Source: the human T2T-CHM13v2.0 reference genome, Homo sapiens
Assembly (NCBI GenBank): GCA_009914755.4
Contig: CP086569.2
Coordinates: 512,001 to 576,000 of the forward strand
DNA: 64,000 nt
Direction of reading: 5' to 3'
Shown: one piece after another, positions 11,740 through 12,874 of the stretch
Numbering within the stretch: position 1 is the stretch's first letter
Layout of the letters: each line of letters starts with the position of its first letter
The notes under the pieces: model-generated
Databases searched by the model: none
Seen by the model: only the letters and a program-made list of their open reading frames with translations
What the model was told of the DNA's origin: nothing
Translations under genes and position numbers: made by a program

Positions 11740-12206
11740 TCCGTGGGGACCCAGGCAGGCATGTTCCCATTTCCTGTCTTCACTTCAAAGAGGGGCCCCT
11801 CGCTCTGGAATGAGGCCTACGGTTTCCTTTCCCGAAGAGTTCCCCTTTGTGAGCTTACGGCTTCGGAGTGAACCTCGGTGCAACCTGTTATTAAAACACA
11901 CAGAGGCTAATGCCAGCAAAAACACGCCCCCCGCTCCTGGTTTCAGAGGGAAGAAAAAAATTCATAAGCACGGCCATGCTTTTCTAATAAAAATTCATTA
12001 AATAATCGTTATAAGGGATGAAGCCGGGAGGGGAGAGGAGAGGAACACAATCAAGAGACTTTCTTTGAACTTTTTCTCCCTGCTTCAAATACAAAGCAAT
12101 CTTCTGTGGGCCTGGGCCTGGGGGGTTTCCCCCTTTCTCTGCAGCCCATTGGGAGGAAGAAAATGCTTCCCTGAAGTTGCTGCAAAATTGTTTCTGTTTT
12201 TCTTTT

Positions 12207-12479
12207 CTTTTTCTTTTTTTTTTTTTTTTGAGACGGAGTCTCGCTCTGTCACCAGGCTGGAGTGCAATGGTATGATCTCAGCTCACTGCAACCTCCACGT
12301 TCCTGTTTCAAGTCATTCTCCTGCCTCAGCCTCCTGAGTAGCTGGGACTACAGGCGCCCGCCACCACGCCCGGCTAGTGTTTGTATTTTTAGAAAAGACA
12401 GGGTTTCCCCATGTTGGCCAGGCTGGTCTTGAACTCCTGTCCTCAAGTGATCTGCCTGCCTCGGCCTCCCAAAGTGCTG
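12207..12479 (-). mobile_element. Alu SINE, missing ~25 bp of its end (copy 1 of a tandem duplication)
   Basis: T23 then gagacggagtctcgctctgtcaccaggctggagtgcaatgg ... cctcggcctcccaaagtgctg, ending abruptly. Confidence 0.9.
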
Positions 12480-12564
12480 TGTTTCTGTTTTTCTTTCCCC
12501 GCTTTCTTAGGAGGCCATCGGGAAGAATAAAATGCTTTCCTTGAAGTTGATGCAAAATTGTTTC

Positions 12565-12874
12565 TGTTTTTCTTTTCTCTTTTCTTTCTTTTTGAGATGG
12601 AGTCTCGCTCTTTCACCCAGGCTGGAGGGCAGTGGCGCGACCTCGGCTCACTGCAACCTCCGCCTCCCGGGTTCAAGCGATTCTCCTGCCTCAGCCTCCG
12701 GAGTAGCTGGGATTACAGGCACCTGCCACTATGCCTGGCTAATTTTATTATTTTTAGTAGAGACGGGGTTTCACCATGTTGGCCAGGCTGGTCTCAAACT
12801 CCTGACCTCAGGTGATCCGCCCGCCTCGCCTCCCAAAGTGATGGGATGACAGGCATGAGCCACCGTGCCCGGCC
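12565..12874 (-). mobile_element. Alu SINE, full length (copy 2 of a tandem duplication)
   Basis: Runs tttgagatggagtctcgctctttcacccaggctggagggcagtggcgcgacc ... gggatgacaggcatgagccaccgtgcccggcc. The ~60 bp of unique sequence upstream (gggaagaataaaatgctttccttgaagttgatgcaaaattgtttctgtttttc) duplicates 12140-12206. Confidence 0.92.

What the first reader, a model, noticed from the sequence alone, without database searches (positions are those of the whole stretch)
12140..12874. Unusually dense local tandem duplications involving Alus and their flanks
Several Alus are duplicated together with adjacent unique sequence or contain partial internal duplications. These are: 12140-12479 / 12500-12874 (an Alu plus ~60 bp of flank); 29063-29330 / 29331-29636; 34102-34410 / 34411-34736; 33486-33950 (internal, ~205 bp); 39236-39590 (internal, ~125 bp, inside intact target-site duplications); 15563-15892 (small internal); and 40215-40510 / 40511-40822 (two Alus sharing an aberrant cccatcc terminus and the flank tgaag.tactt). 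Other instances include a ~45-bp duplicated flank at 1618-1660 / 1912-1960, the L1 end at 45545-46125 and the TG-rich block at 20146-21100. Together they mark this interval as highly prone to tandem duplication, or else to assembly error in repeats.
Basis: seen in the sequence. Interest (0 to 1): 0.5.

Follow-up and report, generated by a model that had tools for sequence, protein, structure and literature searches.

The report
Mixed Alu duplications and nested insertions

Summary
The sequence features exist, but they are not one phenomenon.

- **Real local duplications:** 29097-29323/29408-29637 (94-96%, 12 shared private mutations), 33553-33872 (159 bp), 15578-15652 (39 bp), 45548-46125 (288 bp, L1 3' end), 20143-21100 and 1612/1906.
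32369-32784, 51341-51817, and a threefold Alu+(AAAAT)n+108-bp flank unit at 14188, 17397 and 17862.
- **39223-39606:** the internal repeat lies inside a perfect 17-bp target-site duplication and is as old as the element. It probably arose at insertion.
- **Not whole-Alu duplications:** 34102/34411 is no more alike than unlinked Alus of the same subfamily. 40220/40526 are different subfamilies that share only the 5' end and a target-site duplication.
- **Headline pair:** the roughly 85-bp flank really is present twice. However, Alu 1 has its own perfect 17-bp target-site duplication, and the two Alus share no private non-CpG mutation. Two independent insertions into an older duplicated flank are favoured (about 0.65).

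No copies exceed 96.2% identity, so assembly error is excluded. Excess density over the genome is suggested but not shown. Everything matches known mechanisms, so interest is low.

The parts
12126..12205 (.). Flank copy U1 (non-Alu), ending in the 17-mer TGTTTCTGTTTTTCTTT (12189-12205)
   Evidence: It aligns to 12494-12578 at 87% over 85 columns. All 11 differences fall in the first 57 columns.
12206..12479 (-). Alu 1: T-rich tail plus AluS body, consensus positions 282 down to 32 (5'-truncated)
   Evidence: BLAST to the AluSx consensus gives 88.8%. It has states T/G/G at diagnostic positions 65/163/197.
12480..12496 (.). Second copy of the 17-mer, directly after the truncated 5' end of Alu 1. 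It is read as the target-site duplication of Alu 1; its last 3 bases overlap the start of U2.
   Evidence: It is an exact 17/17 match to 12189-12205. This is the longest flank match of any Alu in the window.
12494..12578 (.). Flank copy U2
12579..12874 (-). Alu 2: tail plus full-length AluSx (positions 282 to 1), with no detectable target-site duplication
   Evidence: It is 92.9% identical to AluSx. No shared k-mer of 7 or more joins its two flanks. It has states C/A/C at positions 65/163/197.
29097..29637 (+). Partial Alu (positions 79-282 plus tail, 29097-29329) followed by a full Alu plus tail (29330-29637). The two copies are non-independent.
   Evidence: Identity is 94.3-96%. They share 12 non-consensus states, 5 of them non-CpG, against 6 and 1 private states. 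There is no homology upstream of 29097.
34102..34736 (+). Two head-to-tail AluY-type elements (34102-34410 and 34411-34736), most simply independent
   Evidence: Identity of 91.4% equals that of unlinked Y-type pairs. Excess identity ranks 3rd of 120 pairs, below two unlinked pairs. A 13-bp A-rich repeat brackets the second Alu.
33553..33872 (-). Intra-Alu tandem duplication, 159 bp x2 (Alu positions ~80-237)
   Evidence: TRF gives 92% and BLAST 92.7%. The junction GAGATC|AGCC shows an AGATC direct repeat. Many private mutations are shared.
32369..32784 (-).
   Evidence: Identity between units is 95.7%. An older right-monomer copy is 82% identical.
51341..51817 (-).
   Evidence: 81% identity.
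39223..39606 (-). Composite Alu, [positions 78-153][positions 20-282] plus A-tail, bracketed by a 17-bp target-site duplication (GTAAGAAGGACCCTTTT on the + strand)
   Evidence: The internal copies are 87% identical and the element is 92.5% identical to AluY.
15578..15652 (-). 39-bp internal tandem duplication near the Alu 3' end, flanked by a GAGA direct repeat
40196..40836 (-). An AluJ-like element (40220-40497) and an AluS element (40526-40809), head to tail. They share the aberrant 5' end GGATGGG..AGCTCA..GTCATCCC and the flank AAGTARCTTCA, which is the target-site duplication of the AluS.
45548..46125 (-). Tandem duplication of the L1 3' UTR end plus tail, 288 bp x2.0
   Evidence: 96.2% identity. 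The L1 identity was recognised by eye from memory of L1 3' ends, not with a repeat library.
20143..21100 (+). Two-unit tandem duplication (572 and 386 bp). Each unit is unique sequence, then a TG-rich minisatellite, then unique sequence.
1612..1979 (+). Direct repeat of about 55-70 bp (1612-1665 / 1906-1979) around a 42-bp Alu 3' fragment
14188..14712 (+). Copy A of the unit Alu + (AAAAT)n + 108-bp unique flank F
   Evidence: The F copies are 83-91% identical.
17397..18391 (+). Copies B (17397-17860) and C (17862-18391) of the same Alu+F unit, directly adjacent. Only B keeps both copies of the target-site duplication AAAATGCCAGTGA.
5888..6462 (-). AluY nested in the A-rich linker of an AluS (target-site duplication AAAAATTAG). 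This is not a duplication.
53228..53822 (+). AluY nested in an AluS linker (target-site duplication AAAAATTAG)
57303..57894 (+). AluY nested in an AluS linker (target-site duplication AAAAATTAG)

Best explanation

1. **Ordinary L1-mediated Alu integration.** New Alus land in A/T-rich targets supplied by older Alus: tails, the middle linker, or the site just upstream of an Alu. This makes head-to-tail and nested Alus that look like duplications.
2. **True post-insertion duplications.**
   - Some arose by slippage or unequal exchange between short direct repeats, or between the homologous left and right Alu monomers (33553, 15578, 32369, 51341).
   - Others duplicated larger units (29097, the Alu+F unit x3, the L1 end, the TG block).
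3. **One insertion-time rearrangement (39223-39606).** Reverse transcriptase probably switched template between the homologous starts of the two monomers.
4. **Local non-independence at 40220/40526.** Gene conversion or homology-assisted joining is inferred for the shared 5' ends.

For the headline pair, the most likely history is:
- An ~85-bp flank was already present as two tandem copies.
- Each copy's T-rich end then captured its own Alu.
- Alu 1 came in 5'-truncated with a 17-bp target-site duplication, and Alu 2 came in full length.

Shown: the anatomy, identities, target-site duplications and patterns of shared mutations. Inferred: the mechanisms and their order.
For: **Background**
- Alu-Alu identity in the window has mean 79%, 95th percentile 87.7% and 99th percentile 90.1%.

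**Independent insertions**
- Three AluY elements sit in AluS linkers with the target-site duplication AAAAATTAG. This is the published hotspot for sense Alu self-insertions, directly after the linker at position 133 (PMC2836564).
- 34102/34411 is not above same-subfamily background.
- 40220/40526 differ in subfamily, with right monomers only 50-70% identical.

**True duplications**
- 29097/29408 shares 12 private states and is the top pair of 1275.
- The 159-bp units are 92.7% and 95.7% identical and share private mutations.
- The unique flank F occurs three times at 83-91% identity, and only copy B keeps both target-site duplications.
- The L1 end is 96.2% identical between copies.
- Short direct repeats sit at the junctions (AGATC, GAGA). 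This fits the model attributed to Jurka and Gentles and to Haber and Louis in PMC3389668.

**Insertion-time event**
- The composite at 39223-39606 begins at Alu position 78 directly against an intact 17-bp target-site duplication.
- Its internal copies differ by 13%, about twice the element's 7.5% distance from consensus.

**Headline pair**
- A perfect 17-bp repeat brackets Alu 1.
- The two Alus share 0 non-CpG private states, against 10 and 8 private ones.
- They differ at positions 65, 163 and 197, where both states are common among other Alus.
Against: **Headline pair: facts that fit co-duplication instead**
- The Alus sit in the same register relative to the flank.
- Their tail starts are alike (TCT-TTTTC against TCTCTTTTC).
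- Flank divergence (13%) is close to Alu non-CpG divergence (9%).

**Headline pair: other weaknesses**
- The last 28-33 bp of the flank are 100% identical while the rest is about 80% identical. No model explains this without extra gene conversion.
- Alu 2 has no recognisable target-site duplication. However, about 70% of Alus in the window also lack an exact match of 9 bp or more.
- The inferred endonuclease site (CTTT|CC) is non-canonical.

**General limits**
- No orthologous or independent assembly data could be obtained.
- 29097/29330 cannot be produced by one simple tandem duplication, and its exact origin is unresolved (duplication plus deletion, or tail insertion plus long gene conversion).
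Confidence: 0.75

Rival explanations
1. The headline pair is one tandem duplication of [flank + tail + Alu positions 282-32], made soon after a single Alu insertion. The extra 14-17 bp at the junction is then a templated filler copied from the nearby flank by microhomology-mediated template switching or polymerase-theta-type joining.
For: - Homology runs in one register through flank, tail start and Alu.
- Copy 1 stops at Alu position 32 exactly where copy 2 continues to full length, as a [XY][XY] duplication predicts.
- Flank and Alu divergences are similar.
- TG and TTT microhomologies exist at the two switch points (read from the sequence).
Against: - It needs a filler that happens to copy exactly the 17 bases abutting the T-tail, so that it mimics a target-site duplication.
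- It needs the duplication to have happened before any private mutation arose: 0 shared out of 18 non-CpG differences.
- The copies differ at three subfamily-type positions.
Confidence: 0.25
2. The whole interval is a true hotspot of tandem duplication, for example a subtelomeric, break-rich region. Alu-internal and Alu-adjacent duplications would then be several-fold commoner here than in the genome at large.
For: - Seven to eight of about 62 Alus carry real internal or adjacent duplications. Published figures give 0.18-0.40% of Alus with tandem repeats at 95% identity or more (PMC3389668).
- Tandem repeats of period under 100 bp cover 16% of the window, with 12 arrays of 300 bp or more.
- VNTRs are reported to be enriched in subtelomeres and linked to double-strand breaks (PMC10097659).
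Against: - At the published threshold of 95% identity or more, the window has only 1-2 events against about 0.65 expected minisatellites and about 0.15 Alu-derived ones. That is not a significant excess.
- No baseline exists for older, more diverged duplications.
- The events span roughly 4% to 19% divergence, which looks like slow accumulation rather than a burst.
- The chromosomal position of the window is unknown.
Confidence: 0.3
3. The duplications are assembly artefacts in repeats.
For: None was found. The only support is the general fact that repeats are hard to assemble.
Against: - Every pair of copies differs by 3.8% or more. The best are 96.2%, 95.7% and 94-96%. False duplications built from the same reads would be near-identical.
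- Many copies carry their own private mutations.
- An independent human-derived contig matches 11364-12025 at 99.7%, although it does not span a junction.
Confidence: 0.02

Closest known systems
Alu-derived minisatellites and intra-Alu tandem duplications (Jurka and Gentles 2006, as described in Ahmed and Liang 2012, PMC3389668)
   Same: - Segments of a single Alu are repeated head to tail, mostly as two copies.
- Short direct repeats sit at the unit boundaries (AGATC at 33553, GAGA at 15578).
- The pattern 'partial Alu next to the 5' end of a full Alu' that they report (136 cases) matches 29097-29637 and 39223-39606.
   Different: - Most copies here are older (81-93% identical) than their 95% cut-off.
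- Two arrays repeat whole right monomers and are better explained by homology between monomers than by microhomology.
[quoted passage not shown]
   Same: - Three AluY elements sit in the sense orientation at the linker/right-arm boundary of an AluS, with a short AAAAATTAG repeat.
- Head-to-tail pairs are bracketed by A-rich repeats (34411, 29330).
   Different: Nothing differs materially. These cases are standard, and they explain the TRF period-133/134 rows that resemble duplications.
Alu/Alu-mediated rearrangement, meaning unequal homologous recombination that gives tandem duplications (for example the titles and abstracts of PMC2150982 and PMC6071635)
   Same: The Alu+F unit at 14188, 17397 and 17862 duplicates an Alu together with unique flank. 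The F|Alu-start junction recurs.
   Different: - The units are only about 0.5 kb.
- Copies A and C carry an extra left monomer.
- No clean chimeric Alu could be reconstructed.
Non-allelic gene conversion between neighbouring Alus (title and abstract of PMC8230782)
   Same: - 40220/40526 share private mutations only over the 5' ~60-100 bp.
- The perfectly identical 28-33 bp at the end of the headline flank also resembles a short conversion tract.
   Different: Conversion is inferred from mosaic identity only. No donor/acceptor polarity or orthologs were tested.

Membership tests
Tandem co-duplication of an Alu with its flank (headline pair) | Non-Alu flank shared by both units, in the same register | tested here: met
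   12126-12205 aligns to 12494-12578 at 87% over 85 columns.
Tandem co-duplication of an Alu with its flank (headline pair) | The two Alu copies share private (non-consensus) mutations, or are more alike than random Alu pairs | tested here: not met
   They share 0 non-CpG states against 10 and 8 private ones. Identity of 84% is the 77.6th percentile. They differ at positions 65, 163 and 197.
Tandem co-duplication of an Alu with its flank (headline pair) | A simple Y|X junction with nothing between the units | tested here: not met
   An extra 14-17 bp, TGTTTCTGTTTTTC(TTT), lies at 12480-12496.
L1-mediated (target-primed) Alu insertion, applied to Alu 1 of the headline | Direct repeat of 7-20 bp bracketing tail and 5' end | tested here: met
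   A 17/17 exact repeat lies at 12189-12205 and 12480-12496, ending in T's against the T-tail.
L1-mediated (target-primed) Alu insertion, applied to Alu 1 of the headline | Canonical TTTT|AA-type cleavage site at the empty site | tested here: inconclusive
   The reconstructed site is ...TTTTTCTTT|CCCC. It is T-rich upstream of the nick, but C rather than A follows (read).
L1-mediated (target-primed) Alu insertion, applied to Alu 2 of the headline | Direct repeat bracketing the element | tested here: not met
   No shared k-mer of 7 or more was found. This is weakly informative, because only 22-31% of Alus in the window show an exact repeat of 9-11 bp or more.
Intra-Alu tandem duplication / Alu-derived minisatellite | Two or more head-to-tail copies of part of one Alu, more alike than the Alu is to its consensus, with shared private mutations | tested here: met
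   33553-33872 is 92.7% identical between copies while the Alu is 86-89% identical to consensus. 32369-32784 is 95.7% between units. 15578-15652 also qualifies.
Intra-Alu tandem duplication / Alu-derived minisatellite | Short direct repeats of 5-20 bp flanking the unit (model cited in PMC3389668) | tested here: inconclusive
   AGATC (5 bp) is present at 33553 and GAGA (4 bp) at 15578. The arrays at 32369 and 51341 instead use monomer-monomer homology.
Nested Alu-in-Alu insertion at the linker hotspot | Host Alu split just after the A-rich linker; insert in sense orientation; host halves contiguous in consensus coordinates; short bracketing repeat | tested here: met
   This holds at 5888-6462, 53228-53822 and 57303-57894, each with AAAAATTAG on both sides. 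The hotspot is described in PMC2836564.
Whole-Alu tandem duplication (34102/34411 and 40220/40526) | Identity and shared private mutations above those of unlinked Alus of the same subfamily | tested here: not met
   34102/34411 has an excess identity of 0.048, ranked 3rd of 120 pairs, with unlinked pairs at 0.053 and 0.051. After removing a gap artefact it has 2 shared non-CpG states. 40220/40526 is 72% identical.
Assembly artefact (false duplication) | Copies essentially identical (over 99%) | tested here: not met
   The highest identity between copies is 96.2%.

The most novel reading that the evidence does not exclude
The window is a genuine local hotspot where small duplications in and next to Alus have accumulated about ten times faster than the genome average. 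This would go together with its unusually high load of minisatellites and long polypurine, TG and AT-rich arrays. One possible cause is that the window lies in a subtelomeric, break-rich domain.
Probability: 0.3. Interest if true: 0.25.

Novelty: already known. Interest (0 to 1): 0.1.

Why it matters
The main value is as a caution for repeat annotation.
- Head-to-tail or nested Alus, and TRF rows with periods of 133-134 bp, are easily misread as duplications.
- Target-site duplications and private-mutation sharing separate true duplications from independent insertions.
- The headline case shows that a shared flank does not prove that the Alu itself was co-duplicated.

If the density proved exceptional, the interval would be a small natural catalogue of Alu-associated duplication mechanisms. 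No new mechanism is implied.

Tried and rejected
**External checks that returned nothing**
- Look-ups of five window ORFs in public assemblies found nothing. These included three ORFs that span duplication junctions. Only one unrelated 662-bp human-derived contig was found.
- Exact-pattern scans of metagenome contigs and of bacterial and archaeal genome contigs found nothing, for either the headline junction or the flank.
- Independent-assembly and ortholog tests were therefore impossible.

**Checks with negative results**
- An Rfam scan of the whole window gave no hits at the gathering threshold.
- A third, degenerate flank copy upstream or downstream of the headline pair was not significant against shuffles. 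A control region scored as high.

**Interpretations rejected**
- TRF period-133/134 rows at 6141, 53239 and 57180 were rejected as internal duplications. They are nested insertions.
- The local repeats at 6711-7551 and 50190-50696 were rejected as local instability. The two loci are inverted copies of one dispersed repeat family that already carries the internal repeat.
- A long (~90 bp) target-site duplication was considered for the headline pair. It remains possible (about 0.1), but it still needs the unexplained 14-bp filler.

**Not attempted**
- The six-frame ORF list showed no obvious exon, and no homology search for genes was run. The genomic locus was not identified.

Full report
**What the window is**

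The sequence is primate DNA. A 662-bp contig from a 'human metagenome' assembly matches 11364-12025 at 99.7%, so the window is human or very nearly so. Tandem Repeats Finder reports 48 merged loci. Arrays with period under 100 bp cover 16% of the window, and 12 of them are 300 bp or longer. From memory, the genome average for simple repeats is about 3%. The setting is therefore Alu-dense and unusually rich in tandem repeats.

**Yardstick**

I projected 51 Alu copies onto consensus coordinates and compared all 1275 pairs. Mean identity is 79%, the 95th percentile is 87.7% and the 99th is 90.1%. I also counted non-consensus states shared by each pair, excluding CpG sites. The mean is 0.6 per pair.

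**Headline pair (12140-12874)**

- The repeat is real: 12126-12479 against 12494-12843, offset 368, 83% identity.
- It includes about 85 columns of non-Alu flank at 87%.
- The Alu parts are only 84% identical, the 77.6th percentile. They share no non-CpG private state, against 10 and 8 private ones.
- The Alus differ at positions 65, 163 and 197, where both states are common among other Alus.
- Alu 1 stops at consensus position 32 and is followed at once by TGTTTCTGTTTTTCTTT (12480-12496). This is an exact copy of the 17 bases that precede its T-tail (12189-12205). It is the longest flank match of any Alu in the window.
- This is the signature of a target-site duplication, so Alu 1 looks like an insertion in its own right.

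The favoured history (about 0.65) has two steps. An ~85-bp flank was already duplicated, and each copy's T-rich end then took in its own Alu.

A single co-duplication with a templated 14-17-bp filler remains possible (about 0.25). It fits the common register, the similar tail starts, and the similar divergence of flank and Alu. A very long target-site duplication is a third option (about 0.1).

One fact is explained by no model. All 11 flank differences lie in the first 57 columns, and the last 28 columns are identical. Alu 2 shows no target-site duplication. This is weak evidence, because about 70% of Alus here lack an exact one.

**Other listed pairs**

- *29097-29323 / 29408-29637.* This is the top pair of all 1275, at 94.3% by BLAST and 96% in consensus coordinates. 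It has 12 shared non-consensus states against 6 and 1 private ones. The copies are not independent. Copy 1 begins at Alu position 79, and nothing upstream is homologous. The order 'partial, then full' cannot come from one simple tandem duplication. It needs either duplication plus deletion, or tail insertion followed by long gene conversion.
- *34102/34411.* At 91.4% it ties with unlinked pairs. Among 120 Y-type pairs its excess identity ranks third, behind two unlinked pairs. Its shared mutations are not exceptional. A 13-bp A-rich repeat brackets the second Alu. The simplest reading is insertion into the first Alu's tail.
- *40220/40526.* Identity is 72% overall, and the right monomers are 50-70% identical (J-like against S-like). 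The shared 'cccatcc' end and 'tgaag.tactt' flank are real. The flank is the target-site duplication of the S element. The shared aberrant 5' ~60-100 bp suggests short gene conversion or homology-assisted joining.

**Internal duplications**

- *33553-33872.* A 159-bp duplication at 92.7% identity, not ~205 bp. It has many shared private mutations and an AGATC repeat at the junction.
- *15578-15652.* A 39-bp duplication flanked by GAGA.
- *39223-39606.* The structure is [Alu 78-153][Alu 20-282]. Position 78 abuts an intact 17-bp target-site duplication. The internal copies differ by 13%, about twice the element's 7.5% distance from consensus. The repeat is therefore as old as the insertion. A template switch by reverse transcriptase between the homologous starts of the two monomers is the most economical account (inference).

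**Non-Alu items**

- 45548-46125 is a 288-bp x2.0 duplication at 96.2%. It covers the last ~250 bp of an L1 3' UTR plus its tail. I recognised the L1 by eye.
- 20143-21100 is two units of 572 and 386 bp. Each unit is unique sequence around a TG-rich minisatellite.
- 1612-1665 / 1906-1979 is a real direct repeat.

- 32369-32784 is a 159-bp unit x2.6 at 95.7%, laid over an older right-monomer copy.
- 51341-51817 is a 168-bp unit x2.8 at 81%.
- The clearest case of 'Alu plus unique flank' is a unit of Alu + (AAAAT)n + a 108-bp segment F, present three times:
  - The copies lie at 14188-14712, 17397-17860 and 17862-18391, and the F copies are 83-91% identical.
  - Only the middle copy keeps both halves of the target-site duplication AAAATGCCAGTGA, so the other two are copies rather than insertions.

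**What looks like duplication but is not**

TRF period-133/134 rows at 6141, 53239 and 57180 are AluY elements nested in the A-rich linker of an AluS, each bracketed by AAAAATTAG. This is the published hotspot for sense Alu self-insertions, with 15,759 cases aligned (PMC2836564). The repeats at 6711-7551 and 50190-50696 belong to two inverted copies of one dispersed family.

**Assembly error**

No pair of copies is more than 96.2% identical, and most carry private mutations. False duplications would be near-identical, so this alternative is rejected.

Assuming roughly 1-2.2 x 10^-9 substitutions per site per year (from memory), the events span about 10 to more than 40 million years (inference).

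**Is the density unusual?**

Ahmed and Liang (PMC3389668) counted 31,472 human minisatellites with unit 20 bp or more, GC 40% or more, and identity 95% or more. That is about 0.65 per 64 kb. They counted 2,663 Alu-derived ones, or 0.18-0.40% of Alus.

By those criteria the window has one clear case, 32369-32784. The L1 duplication has GC 33% and would be filtered out. That is not a significant excess.

Counting older events, 7-8 of about 62 Alus are affected, which looks high. However, no baseline exists at that divergence. The high tandem-repeat load fits reports that VNTRs cluster in subtelomeres and associate with double-strand breaks (PMC10097659). The window's chromosomal position is unknown.

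**Verdict**

The single-cause interpretation is only partly supported. All the mechanisms are already described, so novelty and interest are low.

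Noticed in passing
window 62138-63586: A 1.45-kb array with GC of only 11.5% and a 58-bp period (88% matches in 62894-63580). It is full of quasi-palindromes, with 94 inverted-repeat pairs of 30 nt or more. It should be prone to hairpins or cruciforms, and it resembles the AT-rich minisatellites of fragile sites (resemblance from memory).
   Followed up: partly
window 5888-6462, 53228-53822, 57303-57894: Three separate AluY elements are nested at the same point of an AluS linker, each with the repeat AAAAATTAG. 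About 0.9 such cases would be expected from about 1.5% of Alus genome-wide (rate derived from PMC2836564).
   Followed up: yes
window 8766-9405, 16281-16580, 22085-23006, 26104-26639, 48346-48783: Five long polypurine/polypyrimidine tracts of 300-920 bp: (CCTCC)n, (AAAG)n, (AG)n, (TTTC)n and (CCTT/CTTT)n. At least two of them abut Alu tails. All are candidates for triplex (H-DNA) formation.
   Followed up: no
window 18786-19759: A minisatellite with a 97-bp unit x10. The 197-bp dimer period fits better (85% against 78% matches), so there is a two-unit higher-order structure. It lies just downstream of the Alu+F copies.
   Followed up: no
window 29870-30984 and 55474-55978: A 19-bp unit x59 (73% matches) and a 52-bp unit x9.3 (94% matches). 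The second is young and likely to vary in copy number between individuals.
   Followed up: no
window 6711-7884 and 50116-50745: Two inverted copies of one dispersed repeat (80-91% identical). An 89-bp segment that is single-copy at 50128-50225 has expanded to 4.1 copies at 7501-7865.
   Followed up: partly
window 10263-10859 and 59241-59837: An inverted pair of L1 ORF2 C-terminal/3' fragments, 91% identical and 48 kb apart. Further related pieces lie at 31465-31882 and 37969-38111.
   Followed up: no
Alu consensus position 27 in many copies (for example 12594, 14713, 17397, 17995, 23010, 28257, 40220, 40526): The change GTAATCCC to GTCATCCC recurs in many unrelated Alus of the window. It cannot be used as a marker of shared ancestry, and the cause of the recurrence is unknown.
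   Followed up: partly
window 12178-12208 vs 12548-12578: The last ~28-33 bp of the two headline flank copies, and the third copy of the 17-mer at 12480, are all identical, while the rest of the flank is about 80% identical. This is unexplained. A short gene-conversion tract is one possibility.
   Followed up: partly
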